Below, in pieces: positions 1 to 45,585 of a stretch of DNA of 64,000 nucleotides. The DNA is taken from NCBI GenBank assembly GCA_000092065.1, contig CP000597.1, one strand, 5' to 3'. The position numbers and the translations under genes are program-made. Numbering within the stretch: position 1 is the stretch's first letter; every line of letters begins with the position of its first letter. The notes beneath the pieces are model-generated. The model was not told the origin of the DNA, made no database searches, and worked only from the letters and a program-made list of their open reading frames with translations. The stretch is from Ostreococcus lucimarinus. Lineage: Eukaryota.

Positions 1-134
1 CCCTAAACCCTAAACCCTAAACCCTAAACCCTAAACCCTAAACCCTAAACCCTAAACCCTAAACCCTAAACCCTAAACCCTAAACCCTAAACCCTAAACC
101 CTAAACCCTAAACCCTAAAACCCTAAACCCTAAA
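1..134. repeat. Telomeric repeat array, about 19 copies of CCCTAAA (C-strand of TTTAGGG), one variant unit CCCTAAAA near the inner end
   Basis: Perfect 7-bp tandem repeat read directly from position 1; the C-rich strand running 5'->3' from the window start is the expected orientation for a left chromosome terminus. Confidence 0.95.
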
Positions 135-267
135 CACAGATGCAAATACATGTTTCATGCGCGTACGCGAAATTCCAGCGTCGTCGACTGCCAGTGTAGT
201 GGTTTAGGTGACCCCTTTACTCGCGCTGCTTTCAGGGCGCCAAAAGCGTCATGTTCCAGAGACACTG

Positions 268-306
268 CTAACCCTAGTTTCTAACCCTAGTTTCTAACCC
301 TAGTTT
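268..306. repeat. Subtelomeric telomere-associated repeat, 3 x 13 bp CTAACCCTAGTTT (contains the telomere permutation AACCCTA)
   Basis: Three exact tandem copies seen in sequence, about 130 bp inside the telomere. Confidence 0.85.
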
Positions 307-328
307 CCTGGGAGCCGACGCGGGACGA

Positions 329-492
329 CGACGGCGACGTGGGTGAGTCGATTTGCATTCCTACTTCAAATCTGGGTCGTTATCTATGGCTTCTTGCGTC
401 GTTCCGTCGCAAAGCAGGAGTTGCGAGAGAAGATGTCGCGCCGCGTCGCGCTGACCCGCTCGATTCGCCGCGCACGCCGCGTTATAGACAAC
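329..492. repeat. Inverted-duplication copy A: reverse complement of 4644-4803 (3' end of the gene at 3446-4774 plus about 29 bp of its 3' flank)
   Basis: I reverse-complemented 341-492 by hand and it matches 4644-4795 base for base; the match degrades at 322-330 / 4800-4810. Protein-level echo in the ORF track (343..714+ and 4412..4933- share ...FAFLLQIWVVIYGFLRRSVAKQELREKMSRRVALTRSIRRARRVIDN...). Confidence 0.9.
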
Positions 493-504
493 GAAAATAA
501 AGTT

Positions 505-2235
505 TCACAAATCGCTCGCGGCAAGCCACAGACGGGTTTTCGCGAGTTCGCTGGCGACGACGTCGGAACGCTCACGGTTTTCGATAGGCGCCAATCCATG
601 AGATGGCGGTTGGGGATCCGTTTGGCACGCCATCGATGCATACCAACGAAGCCATTCGTCGTTTCTCGAAACGTTCGCAGAGACGTCGACGACGGAGGGC
701 GTCGACGAGGCTGAGGCGGCGCCCTCCGTCGTGGTCGGCCAGACTTTGTTCGCAAATGCGATGGCGACGCCGACGTGCAACTTGGCCGTCACCGGCGAGG
801 CGATGCGCACTTGTACGCGTGAGCCGTCGCTGAGTACCAACGCCGCGTTGGTTCTCGTTCGATCAAAGAGCAAAATCGTGCGATCGTCAAATACACCGCG
901 CACGCGACCATCGGCGTAAGCGACGAGTTCGCCCTTCACACCGATCGCCTCGCGCTGGATTACATCCACAGACATCGCTGCAAACGCGTCGGCAACGTCG
1001 TACGCACCCTTCGTTATCGCGTCTCGACGTGCGACGCACGCACGCTCGAATCGTCTCAAACGCTCGACGACGGGAAGCAATTCGACGAACTCGTCGTCTT
1101 CAGCGATGTCCTCTAGCCCGAGTTTTCGCGAAGATGTCTGCGACGTAGTTCCTTCGCTGACAACGCCCGGCGCGACCATTACGATGAAATCGTCAGAGCA
1201 CGCCACGGCGCGTTCGTCTTGGGCAACCGCAACGCACCGCGCGTTTGCCCCCTCCCAAGCGAACATGGCGCCGTCTCCGCTACCGTCGCCGCATGCGCAC
1301 GCCCAAATCGTGCAATATGGCGTCCATTCCACCCACGGTTTCGCCTCGGCGTCGTATGTGTTCAAACCCCGCGAAGACCACCACGACTTTGGGTCCTCTC
1401 GCGACGGGTTCCACGGCGTCCCGCCGATGGCTTCACCACCGAGCAACGCGCGAGGAAGCTCGCTCACGGCATCATCAGCACCGAGTCTGTCTATATCGAC
1501 GTCGCGTTCGGCGATCGAGAACGCCCTCGCGCTTCGCAAAGCGCGAAGCGGAAACGACCATCTCTGAGGCGTCGACGCCACCTCAAATCTCGACCTCTGC
1601 CACACGTGCTCAAAATCACTCCCGCGACTGCCGATGAGCACCGGGTAAAGCACCTCAAAAATAACCCCGTGCGACGCGATGAGTCGCGCTTTGACGCTTC
1701 CGCACCGCGACTCGATGGAAAATCCTCCGTCGTCGTCGACGTTCACGCCTGCAGCTGCGTCCCACGTCGCGCTTTCAATCTTGTTCGCGTGCGCAAACGT
1801 GCGCGCGCCGTCGCCGCGCTCTTGCCGTCGCATTTCTTTCAACATCTCTGGCACGTATCTCGGGACGTCCACCAACGCGTTTCGCACCTCTAAAGCCGCG
1901 TTGACTTTGCTTCGCCATTTCGTCGTCGCGAACGCCGTCAACTGTCGCGTGGCCTTCATCGCGTCGTCTCCCTCGCGCGCGCTGAACCCGAACCCACGTT
2001 GGTCGATCACCATCGTCGAGCAATCTCTAAACGAACACTTCATCGCCGTCGCCGACGACGCGAGAGATTCCCGTCGGGAAACCAGCCGCGCTGACGACGA
2101 CGGTTCAGCGGACACTGTCGCATCTTCCCGCACGATGACGACGCGCACGAGGTCATCGGGCGCGGTCCCGGCGCCCGCATCGGTCGCGAACGACGTCTCT
2201 ACTTCGTACGTCTCGCGCGCGCGTCGTACGTCCAT
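505..2235 (-). CDS. Hypothetical protein, 576 aa, balanced composition, possibly beta-propeller-like; first gene inside the telomere
   Basis: Long ATG-initiated ORF with non-low-complexity composition (W/F/Y/K/E rich), unlike the R/A/S/P-rich artefact ORFs on other frames; no family recognised from memory. Confidence 0.45.
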   Translation of the reverse strand: MDVRRARETYEVETSFATDAGAGTAPDDLVRVVIVREDATVSAEPSSSARLVSRRESLASSATAMKCSFRDCSTMVIDQRGFGFSAREGDDAMKATRQLTAFATTKWRSKVNAALEVRNALVDVPRYVPEMLKEMRRQERGDGARTFAHANKIESATWDAAAGVNVDDDGGFSIESRCGSVKARLIASHGVIFEVLYPVLIGSRGSDFEHVWQRSRFEVASTPQRWSFPLRALRSARAFSIAERDVDIDRLGADDAVSELPRALLGGEAIGGTPWNPSREDPKSWWSSRGLNTYDAEAKPWVEWTPYCTIWACACGDGSGDGAMFAWEGANARCVAVAQDERAVACSDDFIVMVAPGVVSEGTTSQTSSRKLGLEDIAEDDEFVELLPVVERLRRFERACVARRDAITKGAYDVADAFAAMSVDVIQREAIGVKGELVAYADGRVRGVFDDRTILLFDRTRTNAALVLSDGSRVQVRIASPVTAKLHVGVAIAFANKVWPTTTEGAASASSTPSVVDVSANVSRNDEWLRWYASMACQTDPQPPSHGLAPIENRERSDVVASELAKTRLWLAASDL

Positions 2236-2352
2236 CTCGATGCGCGTGCGAGGCGCGCGTCGTTGTGTGTCACAGAGTTTTGAATATTCGACAAATTTCT
2301 CTACTTCGCGAAGGCCACGCGACAGTTGACGGCTATTTGTTCTTCGGACGAT

Positions 2353-3345
2353 CTACGTCGCGAACGCTACGGCTATTTGTTCTTCGAACGATCGAGGCGC
2401 CCAGTCTTGACAAATTTCTCGCACGAGCGCGCGCGAATCCATGGAAATGTCTGGAGGCGCGGCGACTCCTCGAAGCGCCTTGGCCTCGGCGCACGACGCG
2501 ACGGCAATTTTTGACTTGAACACCTGTTCCATCGCCGCGTCGCCTTTGGCTAAGAATTCCGCCACGCCGTTCGCCATGTCGACTCTGCTCACGCGATCTG
2601 GTCCGCCCATGTTATACACCCGGCGATCGGGCAAATCATCGTGGCGCTGAAGCAACGTGCGCACGACTCGAACTATGTCGAAGACGCAAATCGGCGAACG
2701 GAACTCGTCGTCGTAAAACGTCGTCGGCGTCTCCTTGGCGAAGCTTGATGCGATGAAATCTAGAAACAACGTTCGCTCTACGTCCGTTAACGGCGCTTTG
2801 GGTCCCGTGATGATACTCGAACGCAGAACGATCGACCGCGGATAGTCCTTCGCGAGCGTCTCTTCGCAAAACACCTTGCTCGCGCCGTAGGCGTTCACTG
2901 GAGCGCACGCCGTGCTCTCGTCGCTCAACGCCCGTTCGCCGTCATAGACGTGATCCGTCGAAAGTTGTATCCACAGCGGCGCTTGTTTGCCGCGAGACTG
3001 CGCGATGGATGAAATCGCGCTCCACAACGCTCTCGGCGCGTTCGCTCGGCGCGCGAGTTCGGGCGCCGCTTCGCACTGCCCCGGCGACGACATCGCCGCG
3101 CAGTTAATAACGCCGCGCAAGTCGAGGCCTTCGGCCATGAGCGCTCGCGCCGCTTCTTCGCAGCTCTCTTCGCAGTTGAAATCACACTTCACGCGCACCA
3201 TTCGTGCGTCGCAACCGTCGTCGCCACCACTTCTTCTCGACGTCGTGAAAACTACATCGCACGCCTCGGTCGCCGCGATGAATTCGCGCGCGACGAATTG
3301 GGCCAGGTAGCCGTCGATCCCTAGCACGCACACCGCGGTTTTCAT
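2353..3345 (-). CDS. RmlD-like dTDP-4-dehydrorhamnose reductase / NAD(P)-binding Rossmann-fold protein (substrate-binding-domain family)
   Basis: N-terminal Rossmann motif MKTAVCVLGIDGYLAQ, STDHVYDG (RmlD STDYVFDG-like) and YGASK catalytic YxxxK. Start moved to the internal ATG at 3345; the track ORF runs to 3621 through a low-complexity leader. Confidence 0.6.
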   Translation of the reverse strand: MKTAVCVLGIDGYLAQFVAREFIAATEACDVVFTTSRRSGGDDGCDARMVRVKCDFNCEESCEEAARALMAEGLDLRGVINCAAMSSPGQCEAAPELARRANAPRALWSAISSIAQSRGKQAPLWIQLSTDHVYDGERALSDESTACAPVNAYGASKVFCEETLAKDYPRSIVLRSSIITGPKAPLTDVERTLFLDFIASSFAKETPTTFYDDEFRSPICVFDIVRVVRTLLQRHDDLPDRRVYNMGGPDRVSRVDMANGVAEFLAKGDAAMEQVFKSKIAVASCAEAKALRGVAAPPDISMDSRALVREICQDWAPRSFEEQIAVAFAT

Positions 3346-3445
3346 CCCACGCGCTTTTCGACGACGACGCGCGGCGACGAGTGCGACGTTCGCTCGTTCG
3401 TTCCTTGGTTCTGTCGTCAGAGGTGCGCTCGTCAACGCGCTCGCG

Positions 3446-4774
3446 ATGGCCGGTGGATACGTCCCCCCGCACGCGCGACGCGGGAAGAATGCGTCGAGTA
3501 GCGCGTCGACGACGATCGCCTCGCCGACGCTCGATGCTTTCGAGCGCGAGCTGCGCGCGGCGTCTAAACGCATTTCACGGGCCGAAACCGCTGAAGAAGG
3601 ATTGGCGCTGTACGCGCGCACGCTGGAGAATTTACGCGCGTTCGTGGCGAGTTCGAGTCAGGACGAACGTGGTGACGAAGCGCGCGTGAGCCTAGCGAAC
3701 GCCGCGCTCGAGTACGCGGGCGAAATCATGCGAGTCGAACGTCGAAAAGCGTTGAGCACGACGACGCGCGCTGACGAGGCTCGCACAAAAGAGCGGGCGA
3801 TTTCATGCGCGCAAGATGCCCTACGAGCGTTCGAAGGTTTAAGTGGTTCGCCATTAGAGAAGGCGAACGGTGTCGCCACCGCGCTTTCACGAATCGTCGA
3901 GCTTGGGGGCGGCGGTGACAACGCCGCAGAGGTTTCGGCGACGCTGGCTCGAGCCGTGGAAATGTACGATTACTGCGCGACATCAATAGAGAATAGTCAA
4001 GCGCACGAAGACGTCATGCCAGCGCTTTGGAATTGCGCGGACGCACGACTCAAAGTCGCCGAACATCGAGCGGAGACGGGAGACGTAGATGGTGCTTCGA
4101 CGTCTTACAGAGAATCATTCTCCTTATACGAGCGCGCATGCGGGTTTTGCGACGCAAATCGGGGCGACGACTTGAGCGGACTACTGTACGATTGGGGTTG
4201 CAGCTTGACGAGCTACGCGCTGTTCTTGGCACAAAGTTTAGATGCGTCGGAAGACGCAGTCAGAATCGCTGACGCTGCGGTTGAAAAATTGCGCGCTGCG
4301 GGGCAATTTGCAATCGGCGACGTCGGCGCACTAAACGCGCTCGGCGACGCATACCAAACGAAGGCAGAAATTTTGTCCCGGTTTGATGATGCAGCGCCCG
4401 CCGTCGACAGTTTACGTCTTGCGATTTGCGAAGCGTACGACGTCGCGCTGAAATTGAACAGCACTGAGTTGAACAGCACCATCGGCCGCGGAGAAGCACA
4501 CATGGCGCTCGCGGCTTTGTTTCGTCGAAGCGGCGATCACGCCAGAGCTGATGAAGCCTCTGACACGGCTTGGAAAGCTTACGACAAGGCGCTCAAGCTC
4601 GGTGATAAGAATGATCCAGGAACGTGCGAAGAACGATTCGAAGTTGTCTATAACGCGGCGTGCGCGGCGAATCGAGCGGGTCAGCGCGACGCGGCGCGAC
4701 ATCTTCTCTCGCAACTCCTGCTTTGCGACGGAACGACGCAAGAAGCCATAGATAACGACCCAGATTTGAAGTAG
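3446..4774 (+). CDS. Hypothetical alpha-helical repeat (TPR-like) protein, 442 aa; its last about 130 bp are duplicated, inverted, next to the telomere
   Basis: ATG-initiated ORF, helical E/A/L-rich composition with repeated amphipathic segments; overlaps inverted-repeat copy B. Confidence 0.5.
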   Translation: MAGGYVPPHARRGKNASSSASTTIASPTLDAFERELRAASKRISRAETAEEGLALYARTLENLRAFVASSSQDERGDEARVSLANAALEYAGEIMRVERRKALSTTTRADEARTKERAISCAQDALRAFEGLSGSPLEKANGVATALSRIVELGGGGDNAAEVSATLARAVEMYDYCATSIENSQAHEDVMPALWNCADARLKVAEHRAETGDVDGASTSYRESFSLYERACGFCDANRGDDLSGLLYDWGCSLTSYALFLAQSLDASEDAVRIADAAVEKLRAAGQFAIGDVGALNALGDAYQTKAEILSRFDDAAPAVDSLRLAICEAYDVALKLNSTELNSTIGRGEAHMALAALFRRSGDHARADEASDTAWKAYDKALKLGDKNDPGTCEERFEVVYNAACAANRAGQRDAARHLLSQLLLCDGTTQEAIDNDPDLK

Positions 4775-4803
4775 GAATGCAAATCGACTCACCCACGTCG
4801 CCG
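4644..4803. repeat. Inverted-duplication copy B (source copy): 3' end of the 3446-4774 CDS plus 3' flank
   Basis: Exact reverse-complement match to 329-492. Confidence 0.9.
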
Positions 4804-4895
4804 CCGCCGTACCTTGAGTGTCGGTTGTAACGGAAAATGTCTCGGCGCGCTCGCACGCTCGCGCTGCCTCACTCACTGCCGCCACCGAAGCCGAC

Positions 4896-5327
4896 ATGTC
4901 GCGCGAGTTTATGTTTGAGAATGAGTTTGCCATTTGTTGGAAGACGACGGTGCTTCCGAACGTACCGTTGAAGATGCATCGACACGATCGGGCGCGAACG
5001 ATCGTCGCGCTTCAGGGCGGCGTGCTTAAACGCATCGATGAAGATGGCTCGCGCAAGGATTTGGTGTTTGAGACTGGAAAGGCGTACTGGTACGACGCCG
5101 ACCCGCCGGATAATTTGCACGCCGACGCGAATGAAGGCGCAGAGCCCGTCGTGGTCGTCGTAACGGAGTTTAAAACGGAAGAGGATAGAAATGGAACGAG
5201 AGATGCGCGCGCTGAATGCGGGTGCGGTGTCGCGGGGGGCGCGTGCGACTGCCGGTCAAAAATTGGTCCACCGTTCGTAATCCCGGGCTGGGAGCCGCCG
5301 ACAAAAAAGAAAGAAACGAGCGCTTGA
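4896..5327 (+). CDS. Small cupin-like protein, about 143 aa
   Basis: First in-frame ATG at 4896 (track start 4818 is GTG). Beta-rich sequence with the cupin-like pattern HRHDRARTIVALQGGVLK...G.AYWYDA...H...EPVVVVV. Confidence 0.4.
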   Translation: MSREFMFENEFAICWKTTVLPNVPLKMHRHDRARTIVALQGGVLKRIDEDGSRKDLVFETGKAYWYDADPPDNLHADANEGAEPVVVVVTEFKTEEDRNGTRDARAECGCGVAGGACDCRSKIGPPFVIPGWEPPTKKKETSA

Positions 5328-5361
5328 ACGGTGTTTCTTGTCTCAGAATTAGTGCTAGCGT

Positions 5362-6849
5362 TTAATTAGAATTGTCACACATGCTCAGCTGACGAGCAAC
5401 CGCACTACGCGCCGCTTCGATGGCTTCTTGTTCCCTACAAAGGACGTACGCAGCAGCCTTGAATCCGACCAGAGTATCGCCTTCGCGAAGATTTCCGAGT
5501 GTTTCGCGCGCCTTGACTACCAGGTCGTCGCACGCTCGAGTGGACGCCGAGTCGAGCAGGTGCGAAAACGTTCGGAGCACGACGTTTTTGACGTCCTGCT
5601 CGTTGTATTCCAAGAAGCATTCACCGAAAAACATGGCGTTCTCTCCGACACCGACGACACTGTCGACTCGTAATAATGCAGCCTTAGGGTCGATGAAGCT
5701 GATATCATCATCCTCCGCTTTCGCGTGCATTTGAAATCCGATTTCGCTCGCCGCACGAAGGAAGTCTTCCCCGCTGAATTCAACAAAGTTTGTCCGCGAA
5801 CTTTGAACGTCGACGAAGCCATAATTTACGAATAAATCTTCGTCGCTCAAATTCGACCCGTATGAATCAAAAACTTGTTCGCCGCACGCGTACGCTTTAT
5901 GCGCTCGAAGCGTCGCTGTTTGCGATAGCGTGTCGTAAGTCAAAATCGCTTCATCGCCCGCATCCGAAGAGTGGTTCAAGCCGTCGGCCCAAGGAACGAG
6001 TGCCATGACTGAAAATTCGTCATCTTCACCGCTATCACCTCCACTGCCTTCCCAACAGTCTGCGTCTAAATCATTCAGGGTTTCTAACAGCGCATCATCG
6101 CGCACTTCGCGCAAACATTCTTCGTCGTCGAGCTCGTTCAGTCGAAACGCTCGGGAGATGACTATCGAGACCGCCCATCTAACGTGTCGCATCGAAGGCC
6201 AGTTCTCATCGTCGATGTTCAATTCATCGACAATCGAGCGAAAAAGGCGTGTGTCTTCTTCGCACGCGCGTATGAGACCTCTCAAGCGCGCGCCGGCGTG
6301 CGTCGAATTCGCCGGCAGATGCTGTTCGACGTCTTCGTCGCGCCAAAGTAAAGGATGCCACCGACCGTCATCCTCGGGAAGCGTGTCTAAATAAGGCTTC
6401 CATCTCGATGTGGTGTCTTTCAACCGCCACTCGCGCAACAGCGACACCGTCAAGAGTTGAAACGAACTCAAACCGCGCGCTCGAGCTCGCTCGAACGCCG
6501 CGTCTCCAAGCGCCGAGCGCGCGTCGAGCATGGCGTCGCGAGGAATCGCCACGATCACGTCGCCTCGCGCGATGCCATCATCGCACACACACGTCGCACG
6601 CACCCCGTAGCCATCGTCCCCAGGCGGTCGCTCGAGCGTTAACGCGAGCGCGTCGAAAGCGAATCGGTTGCGCAACCAACTCGCGAGGCGCGTTTCCGGC
6701 GAGCCCGACGCGGACGCCGACGCCGACGCGCGCGCTCTCGATCGAGCATTCCAACCAGCTCTCGATCGAGCATTCCAATCATCACGATCGCCCCGAACGA
6801 GCGCGCGAGTCACGCGAACCGCGTTCGCGTTCGCGTTCGCGTTCGTCAT
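5362..6849 (-). CDS. SET-domain protein lysine methyltransferase, Rubisco LSMT / SETD6-like
   Basis: LNHSSDAGDEAILTYD...CGEQVFDSYG...DLFVNYGF matches the SET core (NHS motif, YG) plus a C-terminal Rubis-subs-bind-like region. Start set at ATG 6849 (MTNANAN...); upstream track residues are HR/RR low complexity. Contains a 2 x about 23-bp in-frame tandem duplication (DWNARSRAGWNARSRA). Confidence 0.65.
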   Translation of the reverse strand: MTNANANANAVRVTRALVRGDRDDWNARSRAGWNARSRARASASASASGSPETRLASWLRNRFAFDALALTLERPPGDDGYGVRATCVCDDGIARGDVIVAIPRDAMLDARSALGDAAFERARARGLSSFQLLTVSLLREWRLKDTTSRWKPYLDTLPEDDGRWHPLLWRDEDVEQHLPANSTHAGARLRGLIRACEEDTRLFRSIVDELNIDDENWPSMRHVRWAVSIVISRAFRLNELDDEECLREVRDDALLETLNDLDADCWEGSGGDSGEDDEFSVMALVPWADGLNHSSDAGDEAILTYDTLSQTATLRAHKAYACGEQVFDSYGSNLSDEDLFVNYGFVDVQSSRTNFVEFSGEDFLRAASEIGFQMHAKAEDDDISFIDPKAALLRVDSVVGVGENAMFFGECFLEYNEQDVKNVVLRTFSHLLDSASTRACDDLVVKARETLGNLREGDTLVGFKAAAYVLCREQEAIEAARSAVARQLSMCDNSN

Positions 6850-6912
6850 CGCGAGCGCGTCACTGCCGACACCGCAGTGCAGCGCGCGACGAGCTCGCGA
6901 ACCGACAGCGCG

Positions 6913-7602
6913 ATGCACGCGGCGATGACGAAGACGGCGACGGTGACGATGGCGATGACGCGGATGCCGGCGAACACGAAGCGCGCTGACGCCCGTCGCG
7001 TGCGCGCGAGCGCCGTGCACCGTAACGAAGTCGACGTGGAACTCGATCGACGATCGATGCTGTTGGCGAGCGCGTTCGCCGCGTCGACAACGCTCGGAGG
7101 CGCTCAAAACGCGCTCGCAGCGGTGGATGTCGGCTCAAAGGCGCCGGAGTTTACGCTGCCGGGCACTGCTGGCGACTCTGTGACGCTTTCGGACGCATTG
7201 AAGGCTAACGACTACGTCGTCCTATACTTTTACAACCAAGATGGCTCGCCTGGTTGTAGCATCGAAGCGCAGCGCTTTGAAAGCGCGATCCCGCAATTCA
7301 CCGCCAAGAAGGCGCGCGTACTGGGTGTCTCCATGGACTCTCTCGAGAAGCACGAAGAGTTTTGCGATTCCAAGGGGCTCAAATCGTTCACCCTGTTGAG
7401 CGATAACGACGGCCGAGTCAGCGAGGCGTACGGAGCGGATTTGAAGATTCCCATTTTCGGTCGATTCAGCGATCGCCAAACGTTCTTGATCAAGAATGAC
7501 GGCACGATCGTCAACCACTGGCTCGAGCGCGATTCGTCGATGGCGTCGGTGAAGACGACTGCACACGTCGACCAAATTCTCGCCGCCATCGAAGCCGCGT
7601 AA
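6913..7602 (+). CDS. PRXQ: Peroxiredoxin Q / BCP-type thiol peroxidase, probably plastid-targeted
   Basis: GSPGCSIEAQRF...KKARVLGVSMDSLEKHEEFCDSKGLKSFTLLSDNDGRVSEAYG is the PrxQ/BCP signature (peroxidatic Cys in PGCS/T). S/T/A/R-rich N-terminal transit-peptide-like leader. First ATG at 6913 (track start 6877 is GTG). Confidence 0.8.
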   Translation: MHAAMTKTATVTMAMTRMPANTKRADARRVRASAVHRNEVDVELDRRSMLLASAFAASTTLGGAQNALAAVDVGSKAPEFTLPGTAGDSVTLSDALKANDYVVLYFYNQDGSPGCSIEAQRFESAIPQFTAKKARVLGVSMDSLEKHEEFCDSKGLKSFTLLSDNDGRVSEAYGADLKIPIFGRFSDRQTFLIKNDGTIVNHWLERDSSMASVKTTAHVDQILAAIEAA

Positions 7603-7640
7603 GTGAGATGCATAAATATTACAAACTCAAACACATCGCA

Positions 7641-8408
7641 TCACGTACCTAAGCGAGCAACGACGTGTTCGAACGACTTGGCGCCATCCATCGCGCGCAC
7701 GATCTTTTGCTTCGTCGCTTTCAACACGAGCGGGAATTCCATGTACGTCGCGCCGCCGAAACGCAACCATTCGTCGTCGAGCGTTTCAAACATCAGCGCA
7801 TACAAGCGCTCAAAGGCCTCGTCGCCGTGCGCTTCGATCAACTCGGCGAAGCATATTCCCGTTGACGTCGTCGGGGCTTCTTCTTTGAGTTCGCACATCT
7901 CTACTAAACTAAATGTCAGATTTACTCCCGCGACGGCGAATGGGTACTCAAACTCGCTTCGTTCGCCGTTCTTTTTATGCCGCAGCTTATCGAACGTCTC
8001 CGGTTTGTTTTCTCCCAACCAAATCAAATTCGAGAGAGACAAAAACCCGCCAGCGCGAAAATCAGTCGTCGGCGAGCATCCTTGCCACCCCATCTCCTTC
8101 CAACTCTCGCTCTTTAAATCTTTAGGCGGCGCCTTTGACCCGAACGCGAGCGACCACAACTTTTTCAACGCATCCGTGTGCTCGACTTTGTTCCCGTCGT
8201 ACGCCTCGTGCGCGCGCATCGCCAGTGCGTTTAATCCTCGCTTCTGTGTTTCGCTCAACGCGTACGCCGGCACCGGCGTGAGAAGTCCCAGACTCGCCGC
8301 GATTTGCGACACCAGCGCGGCGAAGAAATCGCCGACGACGCGCAAGGAAAACCCACCTCCGCGACGTCCATCGCCGCCGCCGCTCGCGCCACACGAGCGA
8401 TGCTTCAT
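7641..8408 (-). CDS. ELMO/CED-12 domain protein (ELMOD-like)
   Basis: WKEMGWQGCSPTTDFRAGGFLSLSNLIWL matches the ELMO-domain GFQG.DP.TDFRG.G core. Start at internal ATG 8408; upstream track sequence is low complexity and crosses a (GTTC)7 microsatellite. Confidence 0.65.
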   Translation of the reverse strand: MKHRSCGASGGGDGRRGGGFSLRVVGDFFAALVSQIAASLGLLTPVPAYALSETQKRGLNALAMRAHEAYDGNKVEHTDALKKLWSLAFGSKAPPKDLKSESWKEMGWQGCSPTTDFRAGGFLSLSNLIWLGENKPETFDKLRHKKNGERSEFEYPFAVAGVNLTFSLVEMCELKEEAPTTSTGICFAELIEAHGDEAFERLYALMFETLDDEWLRFGGATYMEFPLVLKATKQKIVRAMDGAKSFEHVVARLGT

Positions 8409-20409: not shown

Positions 20410-20427
20410 CGCTAAACCCTAAACCCG
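20410..20427. promoter_or_regulatory. Interstitial telomere-like / telo-box motif CTAAACCCTAAACCC (about 2 units) between two same-strand genes
   Basis: Direct observation, about 120 bp upstream of the ATG at 20550; telo-box AAACCCTAA is a known plant promoter element. Confidence 0.5.
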
Positions 20428-39626: not shown

Positions 39627-40039
39627 TCGCGTCGGCGCATGCACTTCGCACCGACGCTTTCCCCGCACTCATCACTTTCGCGATGAAATCGCGCAATCAT
39701 CGCGTAATCATCGTCGTCAGTTTGTTGTAATCGTATTTGTATGATTGTTTCTCCACGTTCGCCTCGTCCGACGTGCGATTCCACCGCCCAGATCGCGCGC
39801 GCGCGCGATGGTGTAGGGTTAGAGTATCACACCACACGGACCAAAACGATCCTGACCGTTTGTCTTCTCACCATCGCCGCACCTTATACCGCCGCGCGTC
39901 GCGGCGAGCGCGGCGAGCGCGATCGAAAGGCGACGAGAACGCGTGCGACTACGTACGCACTCTCGTTCCGCGCGATCGCGAACCGTTTGGTCGACCGCGT
40001 GCACGTGCAGCGGCGGCATCGTTCGCGCGCGCGCGAGCC

Positions 40040-43000
40040 ATGGCGTTCAAACCGCTGCTCGCGACGCGGGATCGTCGAGCGCTTCTGGAGGAGTGGCGAC
40101 GGAAAAATGCGAACAAGGCGGGGCGTAAGAACGCGCTCGAACGCTCGGAGGTGAATAAAAGCGAGTCGGTGACGACGCAAACGACGGCTGGGACGACGCC
40201 GGTGAAAACCGTCGTCGGCGGCGCGACGCTCGGCGTAAAGTACGACTACGCCTCAATGCGAGGGAAGGAAAATGACGGAACGAGAGGTGAAATGAACGTA
40301 GAAAATGATGGTTCGTTCGTCACACCGCGGTCGAAGACGAGCGAGGCGCGCGTGGGTACGATGGGGAATGAACGGCGAGGCGCGGGGGAACAAGCGTCGA
40401 CGAGCGAGACGACGACGCCGAGCACGGGGAAAAGGTCAACGTTCTTCTCGTTATCGGGCGCGAGAAAGTCGACTAATGGTGTTGGTGGGGCGACGACGAT
40501 CGATTTAATGCCTTCGCCTGCGGTGCGTGCGCGATTGAAGGCGGTTGAAACTGAAAAGGAGGCGCTGCAAGCGCTGGCTACCAAGTTGCGCGAATCCTCC
40601 GAAGCCGCCCTCGAAGAGGCGTACTCAAAGCGGAGTGAAGCAGAAGAACGAGCGAAATCCATGTCAGAGAGACTGCAAAAAATGGAATCCGACAGGGCGT
40701 CGCTTCAAGCCGATATGGCGGCTGTTCGCGCGCAGGCGCAGGCTCTCGCAAAGGCAAAGGAGGAGCACATGCGCGCGTTGCGCAAAGAGAAGCGTGCCGC
40801 GGAGGCGGCGGCCAAAGCGCTCGAGCAGGCGAAAGAGGACGCGAACACTGCGGTGCAAGAGCGTGAATTTACAATTGCGAATCAGGCGGCGATTTTAGAA
40901 GAGCTCGACGACGAACTCGATCGTGCGGAGCGAAGTCGAGAAAAGGCTGAACTAGTCGCCGCCGAAAAGGACAAACTTCTCAAGCAACTGCGGGCGCAGC
41001 TCGATGAGGCTAAGCACGAGCTCGAGATGGCGACCAAGCATCAGACGTCAAAGCAAAATGCTGATACGGGAGGTGTGCGCGCTAGTCAGGAAAAGTTACT
41101 GCAGCTCGCCGCGGCTCGTCAAGAGGCAGAGGCGGACGCGGCGCGCGCGCGCCAAGAGGCCAAGAGTCTCGCAGTTGAAGTCGAGGCGCGCCGTGCAGAG
41201 TTGGAGACTGTGCAATGCGAACTCGAAAAGTGCTTGCAAGAGGAACGTATGGAGCGACAGCGGGCTGAAGAGGCGTACTCGGAGGTACAGCTTGAGCGAA
41301 ATACCTTAGAAGTACTCGTTGAGAAGCGCACTTTGGAGAAGATTGCTCTGGAGGAGCGACTCGAGGCGGTTACTGAAGAGGCTGAATTTCTTCGATCAGA
41401 AATGAAAGAACGCGATGAAATGCTTCGTGAAGGTAATCAGCTTGTGGAAGCAAAGGAGACCGAGCTTGAACAAGCCGTCACGTATGTGCTACACATTCAG
41501 GAACAGCTCGAGCAAATGCAAGCATCCGGGGGCGGTGACAACACCGAGGTCGCCGAGCGAATCAAAGAGCTGCAAATAAAGCACGAGGCTTTGCGCATGG
41601 AAAAGCAGAAAATTCTCGAGGATATGCACACTGAAATTGCTGAGCGCGATGCACTGTTGTATGCGAGTAAGAAGTCGCTGGAATCGAAAGAGGCTGAGCT
41701 CGAGGCACTGCGAGCTGAGTACAGCACCAGGACGACGGAACTGGGACCACTTGAAATTGAGCTTCAAGGTTTGCGGGAAAGAGTCTATTCTTACAAATTC
41801 GAGTTGGAGGAGAAAAATGCACAACTGGCTGCGAATAATGCGCTCGTGAAACAGATGATGTCGGCCGAAAAGCGACAAACTGCGAATGTTAGACGACTCG
41901 AGTTTGGTCTCGCAGAGCGCGATGAAAAGTTGCGCAACTTCAACGAGGAGCTGAACAACTTGAAAATGGAGTCTGATCAACGAGACGAAAACATTTCCGA
42001 GCGATTGGACAGCTTAAAGCAGCGCGAAGGCGTGCTTGAGGCACTTCAACGTGCCACCGAGTTGCGATTAGAGGAGCTTCGTGAGGAACACGCCGAAGCG
42101 GTGTCAAAGCTTACTGCCGAAAAGGCACGTGCCGAGACGCGGGCCTCACAACTCGAGCAACAGATCGATCAGCTGAAGAATGAGTCTAACTCTCAAAACT
42201 TCGACGAGGTCGAGTCGCTCAAGGCTGAGCTTTCCGAGACGTGCGCCAAATTGGAAGAGTCGCAGCTCGAAATCGGACGGCTTTGTACATCTATTGCAGA
42301 ACTGGAGCACAGCGCGGAAGAATCGATGAGCACTCTGAAGGCGCAACTCGAACTGACAAAGGGTGAACTCGAAAACGCCATCTTGGAGGCGGATGAAGCG
42401 CGCGCGACGACGGAGCAAGTCGAAGCAGACAGTCTCAGCATGATGAAGGACATGCAGACGGTCAGCGAAGACTTGGAGAAGAAAATCAACGAATACAAGC
42501 AATTGGTTCGCACGCGTGATTCGGAGCTCAGAAATCTTAAGAAGGAAGTGCACCTTAAATCATTTGAGTCCGAGCGCTTGAGAGAGTCCCAAAGCACTGG
42601 TCTTAAAGCTATCGAAAAGCTCGAGACTGCGCTCAAGGCAAAGGCTGCCGAGTGCGAGCGAGCGAAGAGCGACATTGTTAAGGCGCAGAAGCAGCTCACG
42701 ATGCTCCAGCAAGAGCTCGGTTCGAGTACGAAGACGCAAAATGAATTGCAGGGAGCGTTGAACGAAATGCACCTCAGACTTTCAAAGTCTGAAGAGCAGC
42801 GAGATATGCTCGCCGGTTCGTTGGCGAGGCAAGAGGAGTATCAGGAGAGCGTCAACAAAGCTCGCGAAGAGATGCATCAAATCGCGTTGGAAGACGCTGC
42901 TGATGAAATCAGAAGCGTGCGACGAAAGTCGACTGTTCTGGCGACGGCTTTACAGCAACATGTGAGAATCAACGAGCTCGACGCAGAAGTTGCTCTGTTG

Positions 43001-43393
43001 GTTGATGAATTTGCCGAGTCGATGCAAGCGACGCCGCAGGCGGCGTTGCCGACGCCGACAATGACACTCAACGAGCCGAAGACCAAGCCAAAGACGTACC
43101 GCAAGACGCCAGCGAAACCAAAGGGAACAAATTCGAGCTTCATCACTCCTGTACGTCCTGACGCAAGCCTGAAGGAAAATATTCACAAGCTCAACGAACG
43201 CGCCGATCAAATTTCCTTCAACGATTTGGCGACGAAGCAGCCCGGTTCGGAGGCAAATGTGTACGCCACGCCAGGTGATGAAAACCAAGGCGCGCGTAAA
43301 ATCGCAGGAATAGAGGGGAAGAAAGCTTTGGCGCCTCATTCCGCGACGAAGACGCGCCCCGCGCTCGGCGCCGTCTCTCAAAATTTAGCGTAG
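40040..43393 (+). CDS. Long coiled-coil protein (about 1,117 aa), function unknown
   Basis: Near-continuous heptad E/K/L/Q-rich sequence typical of myosin-tail/SMC-like coiled coils; basic S/T-P-rich C-terminus. Start at ATG 40040 (track start 39737 is TTG through a low-complexity leader). Confidence 0.55.
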   Translation: MAFKPLLATRDRRALLEEWRRKNANKAGRKNALERSEVNKSESVTTQTTAGTTPVKTVVGGATLGVKYDYASMRGKENDGTRGEMNVENDGSFVTPRSKTSEARVGTMGNERRGAGEQASTSETTTPSTGKRSTFFSLSGARKSTNGVGGATTIDLMPSPAVRARLKAVETEKEALQALATKLRESSEAALEEAYSKRSEAEERAKSMSERLQKMESDRASLQADMAAVRAQAQALAKAKEEHMRALRKEKRAAEAAAKALEQAKEDANTAVQEREFTIANQAAILEELDDELDRAERSREKAELVAAEKDKLLKQLRAQLDEAKHELEMATKHQTSKQNADTGGVRASQEKLLQLAAARQEAEADAARARQEAKSLAVEVEARRAELETVQCELEKCLQEERMERQRAEEAYSEVQLERNTLEVLVEKRTLEKIALEERLEAVTEEAEFLRSEMKERDEMLREGNQLVEAKETELEQAVTYVLHIQEQLEQMQASGGGDNTEVAERIKELQIKHEALRMEKQKILEDMHTEIAERDALLYASKKSLESKEAELEALRAEYSTRTTELGPLEIELQGLRERVYSYKFELEEKNAQLAANNALVKQMMSAEKRQTANVRRLEFGLAERDEKLRNFNEELNNLKMESDQRDENISERLDSLKQREGVLEALQRATELRLEELREEHAEAVSKLTAEKARAETRASQLEQQIDQLKNESNSQNFDEVESLKAELSETCAKLEESQLEIGRLCTSIAELEHSAEESMSTLKAQLELTKGELENAILEADEARATTEQVEADSLSMMKDMQTVSEDLEKKINEYKQLVRTRDSELRNLKKEVHLKSFESERLRESQSTGLKAIEKLETALKAKAAECERAKSDIVKAQKQLTMLQQELGSSTKTQNELQGALNEMHLRLSKSEEQRDMLAGSLARQEEYQESVNKAREEMHQIALEDAADEIRSVRRKSTVLATALQQHVRINELDAEVALLVDEFAESMQATPQAALPTPTMTLNEPKTKPKTYRKTPAKPKGTNSSFITPVRPDASLKENIHKLNERADQISFNDLATKQPGSEANVYATPGDENQGARKIAGIEGKKALAPHSATKTRPALGAVSQNLA

Positions 43394-44237
43394 TAGAAAA
43401 TTTGCGACGGTGAGTCGTTTCATATCAAATGTTACACTTACAATACATTTCCTAAAATAATCTGCGATTGCGAGGTCGAAAATCACGCGGTCAGTCGTTG
43501 GTCACGTCCATCGTCGACATCGGCTGGACGAAAGAAAAAGGCACTTGAACTTTAAGAAGTCTAGTTTCTCATCATGCGGATCGGACGGCTCTTCCAGACA
43601 TGAATCATCATCAAGTTCAGCGGCGCCGAGATGGGATGTAATCGCCCGTTTGGCACCGCAAAGTCATTGCTCGAAAGCGAACGGCACGGCTTCCTATCAT
43701 GAAGGCGAAAATCTATGTTGGGCTCTCTTTGGACAGATCTCAATCAACGCAAAGCTCAGGGAACCGTGGCAGAGGAGCCCGTGACGAAAAAAGCTCGAAA
43801 ATGTCGGTGCAACTTAAAGACACGCAACCGAGTATTTGGAACCCAGAGCGCAACACGACGCACGCTTCGGTTGTAGCACGAGACTTGGGACGCGCCCGGC
43901 GATTAATTGACGCCGCACCGCCCGGGGTGAAGGTCTCATGCGAATTCGCGTCCGCGTCGAGCGGCGACGAATGAAATACGACGCGATGAAATGTACCAGC
44001 GAGACAGGTCAACGACGGGTACTGATTAACCCAACATTGGTTTATATCTGGCATAACCAAATATACGCGTCAAAACCCCGCGACGCGGCGAACGGACATC
44101 GCCCCGCCGACGCGAGTGGGTCTCGACGCGAGACGGAGAAAAACAAGTCGCGTCGAAATCGTACGCACCTCTCGCCGCTTCGCAACTATTAAATACACTC
44201 CACCGCGAGCGTCGACCGCGCCGCCGCTTCGCGCGCG

Positions 44238-44570
44238 CTACGTGTGCTCGAAAAATCTGGCGCTGAGCCAATTGAAGTAGACGTACGCGATCGTCCCTGG
44301 GATCAACGCCGGAACGACGCGCGAGTAATACGCGTCCCTCAGCGCCCAATCGATGACTTCTATCCCAGTTTCCAACCGTCGCGTCCCGCTCAGGTCCCCG
44401 ACCACGGACGCGGTCAAGAGTACGAACGCAACCACGGACGCGGCGCACATCGCAACGCCGCGCGCGACGGCGCTCGAGCGCTCCTCCGGTGGATTCCACG
44501 TCCAAGTCGAGCGCCCGCCGCCGAATTCGCTCGCGCGAAGACGCGGCGACGCCGACGCGCGACGGCTCAT
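44238..44570 (-). CDS. Candidate small membrane protein whose C-terminus resembles cytochrome bc1 subunit 8 (UcrQ/QCR8)
   Basis: My own reverse-complement translation gives ...GIEVIDWALRDAYYSRVVPALIPGTIAYVYFNWLSARFFEHT*, cf. UQCRQ ...[30 protein letters not shown]. The N-terminal part (presequence-like, extra hydrophobic segment) is atypical, so this may be mis-started or spliced. Confidence 0.25.
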   Translation of the reverse strand: MSRRASASPRLRASEFGGGRSTWTWNPPEERSSAVARGVAMCAASVVAFVLLTASVVGDLSGTRRLETGIEVIDWALRDAYYSRVVPALIPGTIAYVYFNWLSARFFEHT

Positions 44571-44748
44571 GAGGGCGTCGACGCGAGGCGAACCGTCATG
44601 GGTTCGACGCACGAACGCGCGCGATGGACGCGACGCGCGTGAACGGGCGCGCGCGCGTGTGACGACGCTCTCGCGCGCGACGCCGCCAAACCTACCGCTC
44701 TCGCGCTCGCTATTACGCTACGTGACGCTAATAAATACTACGCGACGC

Positions 44749-45585
44749 TCACGCGACGTCGATCGATCCCGGGAAACGAAACCTAAAATCGACGCACTCG
44801 CGACCTTCCTCCGAAGCCTTGAGCGAATACTTGCTGTCGAATCGAGCGAAAGCGTCGCACCGCGCCCAACCGCGCGGTTGCGCAAAGTCGCGAAACACGC
44901 GGCGCACGTGCTCGGCGTACTCGGCGTCGTCCGTCGCCACGCTCAGCCTGCCTCCCGGTCGCAGCGCCCTTTCGAGCAGGACGAACAGCAGAGGATTCAC
45001 CAAGCGCCTGTGCGCTTTGGATTCGCCGCGCCACGGGTCCGGAAAGTGGCACGCGACTTCGTCCAGCGAGCGCGCCGTGGCGTACGCGTCCAGCACCCAC
45101 AATCCGTCCGCTCTCGACACCTTGACGCGGTCGCCAAGGCCGCGCGCTTCGATTCCCATCAGCGCCTGCGCGACGCCCGGTCGGTGCACCTCGCATCCGA
45201 CGAAGACGTGGTCGTCGAACGCCGCCGCCGAGCTCAACAAGTTATCACCCATCCCGAATCCGACTTCGAGCGCGCGGCGTCGTCCCGCGCCGCGCGTGCC
45301 GAACAGCGCGTCGTAATCCAGCGTCGTCCACAACGCCGCGTCCGTCTCGCGCGCGCGTCGCGACGCACCGTCGTCGCTTCCCGCGTCGCCGCGTCCCTCG
45401 CGCGCGCGTCGCGCCTCGCGCGCGTCGAACGCGACGCCGTGCGCGCCGTACAGCTCTCGCAGCGCGCGCTTCTGCGCCTTGGACGCGCGCGCGCGGCGGT
45501 CGAGGTACGTCTTGTGCCACGGTCGGTCCAGCGCGCGGCCGCGCGACCGCGGCGCGAGCGACGCGTCGCCGTCGAGCGTCGCCAT
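44749..45585 (-). CDS. TRMB: tRNA (guanine-N7)-methyltransferase, TrmB/METTL1 family
   Basis: CHFPDPWRGESKAHRRLVN matches the TrmB FPDPWxKxRHxKRR motif; upstream SAM-fold motifs (EVGFGMGDNL) present. Confidence 0.75.
   Translation of the reverse strand: MATLDGDASLAPRSRGRALDRPWHKTYLDRRARASKAQKRALRELYGAHGVAFDAREARRAREGRGDAGSDDGASRRARETDAALWTTLDYDALFGTRGAGRRRALEVGFGMGDNLLSSAAAFDDHVFVGCEVHRPGVAQALMGIEARGLGDRVKVSRADGLWVLDAYATARSLDEVACHFPDPWRGESKAHRRLVNPLLFVLLERALRPGGRLSVATDDAEYAEHVRRVFRDFAQPRGWARCDAFARFDSKYSLKASEEGRECVDFRFRFPGSIDVA

What the first reader, a model, noticed from the sequence alone, without database searches (positions are those of the whole stretch)
1..4810. Subtelomeric inverted duplication: the 3' end of the third gene is copied, inverted, immediately inside the telomere, bracketing the first three genes
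Positions 329-492 are an exact reverse complement of 4644-4803, which I verified by hand. The duplicated piece is the last about 45 codons plus 3' flank of the helical-repeat gene at 3446-4774. The two arms enclose a 4.1-kb segment carrying three genes, directly abutting the 3 x 13-bp TAS repeats and the (TTTAGGG)19 telomere. Such terminal foldback/inverted duplications are footprints of break-induced replication, breakage-fusion-bridge cycles or telomere healing. If real, the segment can invert by IR recombination, and the duplicated gene fragment could produce antisense RNA against its parent gene. It could also be an end-of-contig assembly artefact.
Basis: seen in the sequence. Interest (0 to 1): 0.7.

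Follow-up and report, generated by a model that had tools for sequence, protein, structure and literature searches.

The report
Inversion scar at an alga's chromosome end
The 161-171 bp inverted repeat next to this Ostreococcus lucimarinus telomere is real and marks a three-gene end block that lies in both orientations, with many different junctions, in wild populations, so it is a recombination scar at an inversion hotspot and not a sign of chromosome breakage and telomere healing.

Summary
Window 332-492 is the exact reverse complement of 4643-4803 (161 bp), extending to 171 bp (322-492/4643-4813) with 3 mismatches. These are the only two copies in 64 kb. The window is Ostreococcus lucimarinus CCE9901. 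About 50 contigs from about 40 public metagenomes show that the enclosed block (g1 C5orf34-like, g2 RmlD-like, g3 helical) occurs in both orientations and in a third gene order. There are at least seven junction types upstream of gene 4, yet almost no SNPs inside the block. The opposite orientation (subtelomere-g3(-) g2(+) g1(+)-g4) is shared with a sister lineage and looks ancestral. Arm A is therefore g3's original 3' end left beside its native subtelomere, and arm B is the copy that keeps g3 whole. The repeat's inner edge coincides exactly with a widespread 40-nt inverted relic of g3 (f40) beside g1. Its outer edge is a junction to the last 17 nt of a lost L-PSP/RidA gene. I conclude that homologous recombination seeded at f40 produced the repeat. 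Foldback/breakage-fusion-bridge, telomere healing, a dispersed repeat and an assembly artefact are not supported. Any g1 read-through would give sense RNA of g3's end, not antisense. This is a new instance of a known kind and moderately interesting as a natural inversion hotspot.

The parts
1..135 (.). Telomere, (CCCTAAA)x19.1 with one CCCTAAAA variant
136..267 (.). Unique subtelomeric sequence (type T1). A 17-nt block at w210-226 is shared, in the same order and orientation, with the sister-lineage contig L025 beyond g3.
268..307 (.). 3.1 copies of the 13-bp telomere-like repeat CTAACCCTAGTTT
308..331 (-). Tprox1: native sequence just beyond g3's 3' flank in ancestral-orientation haplotypes. 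Its last 10 nt (322-331) match 4804-4813 at 7/10, a pre-existing microhomology.
322..492 (-). Arm A (exact core 332-492). On the minus strand it is a sense copy of g3 codons 400-442 (492-364), the stop (363-361), GAATG (360-356) and module P (355-332). Interpreted as g3's original 3' end left at its ancestral site; now a gene relic 12 nt downstream of g1's stop.
453..492 (-). f40: the inner 40 nt of arm A. In 21 wild contigs this 40-nt piece alone sits beside g1, joined to the L-PSP gene tail. It shares the same inner boundary and spacer as arm A. Proposed recombination seed.
493..504 (-). 12-nt spacer between arm A and g1's stop codon. The window variant GAAAATAAAGTT also occurs in L050, which has only f40.
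505..2235 (-). g1, C5orf34-like protein, 576 aa (ABP00492 / XP_001422175)
2353..3345 (-). g2, RmlD/NAD-epimerase-like (dTDP-4-dehydrorhamnose reductase-like), 330 aa
3446..4774 (+). g3, 442-aa helical (TPR-like) protein (ABP00387 / XP_001422070). Intact in every haplotype seen except the 443-aa form in L043.
4643..4813 (+). Arm B (exact core 4643-4803): the functional 3' end of g3 plus GAATG and module P (4780-4803)
4801..4817 (+). Last 17 nt, including the TGA stop, of an L-PSP/RidA gene that is intact at this position in the sister lineage (L025:4644-5123) and lost here. It overlaps P by CCG (4801-4803), a 3-nt microhomology at the outer edge of the exact repeat.
4818..4892 (+). Rstart: the former L-PSP 3' region and gene 4 upstream region, with TGTAA at 4826-4830. 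In other haplotypes it is found inverted next to the subtelomere or replaced by subtelomeric sequence.
4893..5327 (+). g4, small cupin-like protein (ABP00388, 143 aa from this ATG). It is the fixed anchor against which the block's orientation is read.

Best explanation
The repeat is a recombination scar of a polymorphic inversion of the terminal three-gene block in Ostreococcus lucimarinus. The inferred ancestral order was telomere-subtelomere-P'-g3(-) g2(+) g1(+)-[L-PSP]-g4. Loss of the L-PSP gene body left its last ~60 nt and a 40-nt inverted copy of g3 codons 400-413 (f40) beside g1's stop, joined at a GTC microhomology; this step is inferred. f40 gave homology in inverted orientation to g3's own 3' end. 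Recombination at that 40-nt seed joined 'subtelomere + native g3 3' end' to 'spacer + g1(-) g2(-) g3(+)'. This could have been a crossover within one ancestral-type chromosome, or a crossover or break-induced copying between chromosomes carrying the block in opposite orientations. It produces the window's left junction exactly. The right junction (g3-P joined to the last 17 nt of L-PSP through CCG) comes from a microhomology-mediated join. The overlap of these two junctions defines the 161-bp exact repeat. Arm A is a non-functional relic in g1's 3' flank. Arm B keeps g3 intact, which is why a breakpoint inside the gene is tolerated. The repeat is also a substrate for further flipping. Shown: the repeat, both orientations in nature, the junction identities, and arm A lying at g3's native site. 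Inferred: the order of events, the recombination mechanism, and ongoing flipping.
For: Repeat real and unique in the window. Species is O. lucimarinus CCE9901. Both orientations are common: g1->g4 in 17 loci and g3->g4 in 23, with six distinct spacings. Opposite-orientation contigs reach 350 kb and have no long repeat, so assembly is unambiguous (L004, L043-L046, L049, L051). Sister lineage L025 (g1 90% identical) has g3(-) g2(+) g1(+) L-PSP g4. Beyond g3 it has sequence collinear with window 210-338. L049 and L051 show full g3-P-Tprox-13-bp repeats. H4, H5 and H6 carry g3-P plus 27, 55 and 115 nt of subtelomere moved next to g1 or g4. P-subtelomere is therefore g3's native flank, as at arm A. 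The arm A inner boundary with its spacer is identical to the f40 boundary found in 21 loci in three outer contexts. The window spacer variant occurs with f40 alone in L050. Module Q next to f40 is the tail of L-PSP, and the window retains its last 17 nt. The outer edge has a CCG overlap and a 7/10 match, P about 0.007. For the 64-nt Q arm all four reciprocal junctions exist, and the arm is shorter than the assemblers' k. That shows at least one inversion of this block by recombination between inverted repeats. Wild scaffold L011 has the full-arm structure with an arm-specific SNP.
Against: No recombination event was observed directly. The flipped isomer of the window haplotype (g1-spacer-full G3end-P-g4) and the predicted reciprocal products were not found. 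Short-read contigs could not resolve a 161-bp repeat in any case. Polarity rests on one sister-lineage contig plus junction logic, and the sister lineage is itself polymorphic (L042: g3(+)-1108-aa gene-L-PSP-g4). SNPs in the block are too few to reconstruct parentage. The block is nearly identical among haplotypes, so left/right junction pairings in short-read contigs can be chimeric (L014, L002, L003, L041); only local junctions are safe. Only one independent wild instance of the full 171-bp arm was found. The rest of the O. lucimarinus genome could not be searched for extra copies.
Confidence: 0.7

Rival explanations
1. One-step inversion with staggered breaks (Ranz et al. 2007). Two offset nicks around g3's last 161 bp plus a break between g1 and gene 4, followed by fill-in and end joining, inverted the block and duplicated the stretch between the nicks. 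On this view the 40-nt f40 relics are later deletion derivatives of a full arm.
For: The pattern matches the published class: inverted duplications of unique, often genic, sequence of 46 bp to 1.9 kb at one or both breakpoints, with breakpoint reuse. The window junctions show only 3-nt microhomology, as in end joining. Other inversions at this locus (H4, H5, H6) are clean end-joining-type events.
Against: It requires the inner nick and the distal break to fall by coincidence exactly on the f40 boundaries. f40 is far more widespread (21 loci; T2, T3 and R contexts) than the full arm (2 loci). f40 is fused to L-PSP-tail sequence that the window haplotype lacks, so f40 forms cannot descend from the window form. 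The required precursor junction, g1-spacer directly on the L-PSP tail, was not seen.
Confidence: 0.15
2. Terminal foldback, breakage-fusion-bridge cycle or telomere healing. A broken chromosome end folded back or fused, copied inward sequence in inverted orientation, and was capped by a new telomere.
For: An inverted repeat lies within 330 bp of a telomere. Some wild haplotypes carry at least 6 kb more DNA distal to g3 (L044, L046), so the short T1 end may itself be an old truncation.
Against: The arms are 171 bp with a 4.15-kb single-copy spacer, not a large palindrome. Nothing else is duplicated. Arm A and 250 nt of flanking subtelomere are identical to the native g3-subtelomere junction of opposite-orientation contigs and collinear with the sister lineage. 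The end was therefore not newly made. The same block is inverted many times with other breakpoints and no duplication.
Confidence: 0.03
3. Assembly artefact at the contig end (collapsed or chimeric repeat).
For: It lies at the end of a record, and repeats near telomeres are error-prone.
Against: Independent metagenome scaffold L011 reproduces window 235-8000 at 99.95% with both arms, and its arm B carries a SNP absent from arm A. The arm sequence and both flanks each occur in other wild contigs. From my own knowledge, not checked here (one search failed): the reference is a finished Sanger assembly whose reads exceed 171 bp.
Confidence: 0.02
4. Dispersed repeat or terminal inverted repeats of a mobile element that carries the three genes.
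For: Two inverted copies flank a gene-bearing segment that changes orientation.
Against: The arm is simply the coding 3' end of g3 plus its flank. There are only two copies in 64 kb. Every external match lies at this locus. There are no target-site duplications, since the flanks GAGCCGACGC and CTTGAGTGTC differ, and no transposase or recombinase in the block. Breakpoints differ between haplotypes.
Confidence: 0.02

Closest known systems
Inverted duplications at inversion breakpoints (Drosophila melanogaster group; Ranz et al. 2007, PMC1885836)
   Same: A unique genic sequence is present once at each end of an inverted segment, in inverted orientation. One copy is a relic and the other keeps the gene intact. 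The size is within the reported 46 bp to 1.9 kb range. Breakpoint regions are reused.
   Different: Here the inner edge coincides with a pre-existing 40-nt inverted seed, which favours homologous recombination over staggered nicks. The inversion is only 4.2 kb, sits at a chromosome end, and is still polymorphic alongside many sibling rearrangements in wild populations.
Flip-flop isomerisation between inverted repeats (plastid genome IR isomers, yeast 2-micron circle, herpesvirus segments; from my own knowledge)
   Same: A segment bracketed by inverted repeats occurs in both orientations. For the 64-nt Q arm all four reciprocal junctions are observed.
   Different: The arms are short (40-171 bp) and differ between haplotypes. 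No dedicated recombinase is evident. Ongoing switching within one strain was not shown, and the four junctions need only one historical event.
Foldback inversion, breakage-fusion-bridge and telomere healing
   Same: An inverted duplication close to a telomere.
   Different: No large palindrome and no terminal loss at this step. The native subtelomere is retained.
Templated insertions in microhomology-mediated repair (polymerase theta end joining, or microhomology-mediated break-induced replication; from my own knowledge)
   Same: f40 is a short inverted copy of sequence 4 kb away. It was inserted where the L-PSP gene was deleted, with a 3-nt GTC microhomology and nearby imperfect homology.
   Different: This applies to the seed only, and the enzymology is untestable here.
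Structural hypervariability of Ostreococcus outlier chromosomes (PMC5498103, PMC13390643)
   Same: Same genus, with abundant structural variation within populations and NHEJ-type junctions.
   Different: Those cases are large deletions, translocations and size changes on low-GC outlier chromosomes. This is a kilobase-scale inversion cluster on a chromosome end of ordinary composition (56-65% GC) with conserved housekeeping-type genes.

Membership tests
Breakpoint-associated inverted duplication of an inversion | The segment between the copies is inverted relative to the ancestral or outgroup arrangement | tested here: met
   Sister lineage L025 and many O. lucimarinus contigs have g3(-) g2(+) g1(+)-g4, while the window has g1(-) g2(-) g3(+)-g4. 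Caveat: the sister lineage is itself polymorphic.
Breakpoint-associated inverted duplication of an inversion | The duplicated sequence is single-copy and non-repetitive in the uninverted arrangement | tested here: inconclusive
   The full 161-bp unit is single-copy in L004, L008 and L019-L024. Most ancestral-type contigs already hold a second, 40-nt partial copy, f40.
Breakpoint-associated inverted duplication of an inversion | One copy at each breakpoint, in inverted orientation, with one copy a truncated relic | tested here: met
   Arm A is a 43-codon relic and arm B is part of intact g3.
Breakpoint-associated inverted duplication of an inversion | The duplication is created in the same event as the inversion (staggered breaks) | not testable with these tools
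   The coincidence of the arm boundary with f40 argues for recombination at a pre-existing seed instead.
Inverted-repeat-mediated flip-flop segment | Both orientations exist with all four reciprocal arm/insert junctions | tested here: inconclusive
   Met for the 64-nt Q arm. For the window's own 161-bp arm only two of the four junctions are diagnostic and seen. The flipped-window junction was not found and is not resolvable by k<=141 assemblies.
Inverted-repeat-mediated flip-flop segment | Switching continues within a clonal lineage | not testable with these tools
   Needs long reads or PCR on strain CCE9901.
Foldback / breakage-fusion-bridge terminal inverted duplication with telomere healing | A large inverted duplication with little or no spacer, running to a new chromosome end | tested here: not met
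   171-bp arms, a 4150-nt single-copy spacer and no other duplication.
Foldback / breakage-fusion-bridge terminal inverted duplication with telomere healing | Telomere added de novo at a non-native site | tested here: not met
   The arm A flank equals the native g3-subtelomere junction in L009, L049 and L051 and is collinear with L025.
Transposon terminal inverted repeats / dispersed repeat | Multiple genomic copies, target-site duplication, element-encoded recombinase | tested here: not met
   Two copies in 64 kb, all external matches at this locus, flanks differ, and no transposase among g1-g3. The whole genome was not searchable.

The most novel reading that the evidence does not exclude
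The end of this chromosome is a high-rate, possibly selected, inversion switch. Repeated flipping of the three-gene cassette decides whether g1 or g3 lies against the telomere, which 3' region each of them uses, and what sequence sits upstream of gene 4. That would be a eukaryotic nuclear analogue of bacterial phase variation. It would be maintained in huge haploid populations and would explain why structural diversity here (at least seven junction types) far exceeds nucleotide diversity (about 0.1-0.3%).
Probability: 0.08. Interest if true: 0.85.

Novelty: new member of a known kind. Interest (0 to 1): 0.5.

Why it matters
It turns a curiosity in one reference genome into a documented natural inversion hotspot in a globally abundant, culturable, haploid picoalga. 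Both orientations occur at comparable frequency, there are many independent breakpoints within about 5 kb, and the background is nearly SNP-free. That offers a tractable system to measure inversion rates. It could separate recombination between short inverted repeats from staggered-break or end-joining mechanisms, and test position effects at a telomere. It also warns annotators and population genomicists that the reference arrangement of this chromosome end is a minority haplotype, and that gene 4's upstream region and the 3' regions of g1 and g3 differ between strains.

Tried and rejected
(2) An exact look-up of the small ORF 339-500, specific to the arm A-spacer junction, found nothing on record. 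(3) SNP matrices of the block, intended to trace the window haplotype's parents, had too few sites: 13, later 11 non-singleton. (4) Distant orthologue contigs (g1 40% identical) have g1, g4, g5 and g3 nearby but in another order, so they do not help with polarity. (5) A search for the predicted reciprocal of the window's right junction (Tprox|Q') and for the flipped-window junction found neither. (6) Poly(A)-signal analysis: TGTAA is enriched after stops (8/30 ORFs vs about 1.3 expected) and lies 52 nt after g3's stop, but none lies in g1's 3' flank, so it cannot show whether arm A serves as g1's 3' UTR. (7) The O. lucimarinus genome paper could not be opened, so the Sanger-finished status is from memory. 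(8) I first read the window-type spacer in Logan contigs L015 and L016 as extra evidence for the full arm. I rejected this after L050 showed the same spacer with f40 only. (9) I tested whether the large gene distal to g3 in L044/L046 equals the 1108-aa gene of L042. There was no similarity; only a ~15-40-nt element is shared. (10) The 629-aa gene-1 forms were suspected to be fusions into the arm. They are N-terminal extensions caused by the H4 rearrangement.
Full report
OBSERVATION. The window starts with (CCCTAAA)x19.1 at 1-135, then 132 nt of unique sequence, then CTAACCCTAGTTT x3.1 at 268-307. The repeat finder gives inverted arms 322-492 and 4643-4813: 171 nt, 98% complementary, 4150 nt apart. 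A base-by-base comparison shows an exact 161-bp core, 332-492 = reverse complement of 4643-4803, plus 10 outer nt with 3 mismatches. These are the only two copies in 64 kb, and nothing else in the window repeats at this length and identity. The arms enclose g1 (505-2235, minus strand, C5orf34-like, 576 aa), g2 (2353-3345, minus, RmlD/epimerase-like, 330 aa) and most of g3 (3446-4774, plus, 442-aa helical protein). The repeat covers g3 codons 400-442, the stop, and 29-39 nt of flank.

SOURCE. The four proteins are exact matches to Ostreococcus lucimarinus CCE9901 entries ABP00492, ABP00493, ABP00387 and ABP00388 on a 366,173-bp record. GC content of 56-65% and conserved genes indicate an ordinary chromosome, not an outlier one.

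THE SAME LOCUS IN WILD POPULATIONS. Exact-protein look-ups returned about 50 contigs from about 40 metagenome or sequencing-run assemblies. The DNA of the block (w507-4642) is 99.5-100% identical among them, with only 11-13 variable sites. The architecture differs sharply. Reading what lies within 420 nt upstream of gene 4's ATG, g1 points into g4 in 17 loci and g3 points into g4 in 23 loci, with six different spacings.

The main forms are as follows. T = subtelomere; R = gene-4 side; P = the 24 nt after g3's stop+GAATG in the window; K/Q = L-PSP tail, explained below.
- Window type: T1-P'-relic-spacer-g1(-) g2(-) g3(+)-P-R. Seen only in the window and L011.
- Ancestral-like type: T-...-g3(-) g2(+) g1(+)-spacer-f40-K-R. 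Seen in L009 and in long contigs L043 to L046, L049 and L051, up to 350 kb.
- Direct type: g3(-) g2(+) g1(+) joined straight onto R, with g1 at 577 aa. Seen in L004 (56 kb), L005 and L008.
- H4: telomere-T3-g2(-) g3(+)-P-27 nt of subtelomere-g1(+)-R. 17 contigs up to 99 kb; here g1 is mis-called as 629 aa.
- H5: T3-inverted R start-K'-f40-spacer-g1(-) g2(-) g3(+)-P-55 nt of subtelomere-g4. 20 contigs.
- H6: g1(-) g2(-) g3(+)-P*-115 nt of subtelomere including 13-bp repeats-g4.
- T2/Q types: T2-Qx'-f40-spacer-g1(-)...g3(+)-Q-R in L013, L047 (142 kb), L048 and L050; and T2-Qx'-g3(-)... in L004 and L005.

One caveat applies throughout. The block is nearly identical among haplotypes, so short-read assemblers can pair a left junction from one haplotype with a right junction from another. 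L014 has T on both sides; L002, L003 and L041 have R on both sides, with overlaps equal to k. I therefore rely on local junctions, each of which gives orientation on its own, and on long contigs that lack long repeats.

WHAT THE MODULES ARE. A lineage whose g1 is 90% identical (L025) has g3(-) g2(+) g1(+), then an intact 159-aa L-PSP/RidA gene, then g4. The last ~60 nt of that gene read ...GTCCATGGCG-TTACCCGAATATTTAGTCGAGATCCAAATCACCG-CCGCCGTACCTTGA. This is exactly the 'c+Q' module found in many O. lucimarinus junctions, followed by the 17 nt the window still has at 4801-4817. L-PSP is absent from the whole 64-kb window.

So O. lucimarinus lost the L-PSP body. In its place, beside g1's stop, most haplotypes have a 12-13-nt spacer plus f40. 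f40 is a 40-nt inverted copy of g3 codons 400-413 (= window 453-492), joined to the L-PSP tail at a GTC microhomology with further imperfect similarity. f40 occurs in 21 loci, next to R, T2 or T3.

POLARITY. Four lines of evidence point the same way.
- The adjacency g1(+) -> L-PSP (tail) -> g4 is shared by the sister lineage and the O. lucimarinus f40-K-R junction.
- Beyond g3's 3' end, L025 has a 17-nt exact match to w210-226, then degenerate telomere-like motifs, then a GGGAG...GACGACGACGGCGACG tract. These lie in the same order and orientation as window 210-338.
- L049 and L051 (53 and 56 kb, with no repeat longer than 40 nt) show full-length g3-P-Tprox-13-bp repeats.
- H4, H5 and H6 carry g3-P plus 27, 55 or 115 nt of subtelomere that moved together with g3.

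Hence subtelomere-P'-g3(-) is the native arrangement and the window orientation is derived. Arm A with its flank is g3's original 3' end left in place. In L009 the same 253 nt (w240-492) continue into the g3 body at 100% identity. Arm B is the copy attached to the relocated gene. The polarity is not airtight, because sister contig L042 has g3(+)-1108-aa gene-L-PSP-g4. That shows the sister lineage also rearranges this end.

HOW THE REPEAT AROSE. Two boundaries define it. The inner boundary (w492|493, then the spacer and g1's stop) is identical to the f40|spacer boundary of the common haplotypes. The window's spacer variant GAAAATAAAGTTTC also occurs with f40 alone in L050, a 73-kb window-orientation contig ending in telomere repeats. 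The outer boundary of arm B is P joined to the last 17 nt of L-PSP through a CCG overlap. The next 10 nt match the native P flank at 7/10, with P about 0.007.

The simplest account is homologous recombination seeded at f40. One route is a crossover between f40 and g3's own codons 400-413 on an ancestral-type chromosome, which are in inverted orientation. The other is a crossover or break-induced copying at the same 40 nt between a window-orientation chromosome (such as L050 or L001) and the native g3 end of an opposite-orientation chromosome. In the second route the two 40-nt tracts have the same polarity relative to the telomere. Either route yields T1-P'-full relic-spacer-g1(-) exactly.

In the second route no further step is needed. 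The 161-bp repeat is simply the overlap between 'native g3 end + P + subtelomere' and 'g3 end + P + L-PSP tail'. In the first route g3 is truncated at codon 413 and must be restored by copying from arm A. Junction R-c in L002 (g3 stop-GAAATG-CGAATCGAGCGGGT-CCATGGCG-Q) looks like the footprint of such a repair.

Independent support that inverted-repeat recombination operates here comes from the 64-nt Q arm. Its copy next to T2 and its copy next to R are each found joined to either end of the block, giving all four reciprocal junctions. The arm is shorter than the assemblers' k of 119-141, so the junctions are unambiguous.

RIVALS. A one-step staggered-break inversion (Ranz et al. 2007) fits the general pattern. 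However, it needs the breaks to coincide with the f40 boundaries by chance. It cannot derive the widespread f40-L-PSP-tail junctions from the window form, which lacks that tail. Its precursor junction was not seen.

Foldback, breakage-fusion-bridge or telomere healing is contradicted by the short arms, the 4.15-kb single-copy spacer, the absence of any larger duplication and the retained native subtelomere. An assembly artefact is contradicted by L011, an independent wild scaffold matching w235-8000 at 99.95% with both arms, where arm B alone carries a SNP at w4675. A mobile element or dispersed repeat is contradicted by copy number, genic content, lack of target-site duplications and variable breakpoints.

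CONSEQUENCES. All haplotypes keep g1 (576/577 aa) and g2 (330 aa) intact. g3 is 442 aa in all of them except L043, where it is 443 aa with a different 3' end. The duplication is what allows a breakpoint inside g3 without losing the gene.

On g1's strand, arm A lies 12 nt after the stop as a sense copy of g3's end, followed by the 13-bp repeats and the telomere. Read-through from g1 would therefore make sense RNA, not antisense. The relic happens to be in frame with g1 (a 1-in-3 chance, and out of frame in haplotypes with a 13-nt spacer).

g3's 3' region in the window is the former L-PSP 3' region, with TGTAA 52 nt after the stop. TGTAA is enriched after stops in this window, but nothing comparable lies downstream of g1. 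Gene 4's upstream sequence differs radically between haplotypes. Whether the 161-bp arms still flip in CCE9901 is untested.

NOVELTY. Inverted duplications at inversion breakpoints, repeat-mediated inversions and unstable subtelomeres are all known. In Ostreococcus, published structural hypervariability concerns the outlier chromosomes. I found no description of this locus or of a kilobase-scale inversion cluster at an ordinary chromosome end. I rate it a new member of a known kind and of moderate interest. Its value is as a natural, SNP-poor, culturable system with many independent inversion junctions.

Noticed in passing
window 4801-4817; L025:4644-5123; L042:4005-4496: An L-PSP/RidA gene (159 aa) sits between g1 and g4 in the sister lineage. 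In the window only its last 17 nt, including the stop, survive. Other O. lucimarinus haplotypes keep about 60 nt. There is no L-PSP homologue anywhere in the 64-kb window.
   Followed up: yes
window 1934-1957 and 2310-2333: A perfect 24-nt inverted repeat: a piece of g1 coding sequence copied in inverted orientation into the g1-g2 intergenic region. The H4 rearrangement breakpoint (w2323|2328) falls inside its right arm. It may be another small templated insertion acting as a breakpoint.
   Followed up: partly
window 2329-2353 and 2369-2393: A 40-nt-period tandem duplication (25 nt, 96% identical) covering g2's last codons and the sequence just after its stop. The H4 left junction starts at the first copy.
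   Followed up: no
L019:1-385, L029:1-200, L001:1-566, L044:1-2620, L045:1-970: At least four unrelated sequences lie between this block and the telomere in different wild haplotypes: T1, T2 (91% to T1), T3, and a longer end with two more genes of 193 aa and >889 aa in L044/L046. This suggests subtelomere exchange or terminal truncation. L042, L044, L045 and L046 share a short element, GAATTAAAAAACGCT.
   Followed up: partly
L042:485-3811: A sister-lineage haplotype has a 1108-aa secreted/membrane-type protein gene between g3(+) and L-PSP. It has no homologue in the window or in the other contigs examined.
   Followed up: partly
window 361-492 vs L025:348-479 and L042:1-213: g3's last ~130 nt are 98.5-99% identical between the two lineages, while the block as a whole is 94% identical. 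This could reflect strong constraint or recent exchange of this very segment.
   Followed up: no
window 493-507: g1's TGA stop, the 12-nt spacer and the g3 relic are in one reading frame. Stop read-through would append 47 residues ending in g3's C-terminus. This is probably chance, since the spacer is 11 nt (frame-shifted) in other haplotypes.
   Followed up: partly
window 20411-20426: An interstitial telomere-like motif (CTAAACCCTAAACCC, two repeat units) lies 20 kb from the end.
   Followed up: no
window 40001-48000 and 45532-46612 / 52795-56334: A region with strong AT skew (0.26 and 0.14) and GC up to 65%. It contains diverged low-identity (68-80%) direct and inverted self-similarities, including a 428-nt imperfect palindrome at 45532-45959.
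   Followed up: no
L002:1-40 (= L012 end; ERZ27252021 k141_283232): The public metagenome contig ends in a Nextera adapter (TCGTCGGCAGCGTCAGATGTGTATAAGAGACAG), which is contamination in the assembly.
   Followed up: no
L026-L028 (g1 orthologue 40% identical): In a more distant relative, g1, g4, ELMO, redoxin, g5 and g3 are all within 12 kb but in a different order, and g2 and L-PSP are absent. This gene neighbourhood has been reshuffled repeatedly over longer timescales too.
   Followed up: partly
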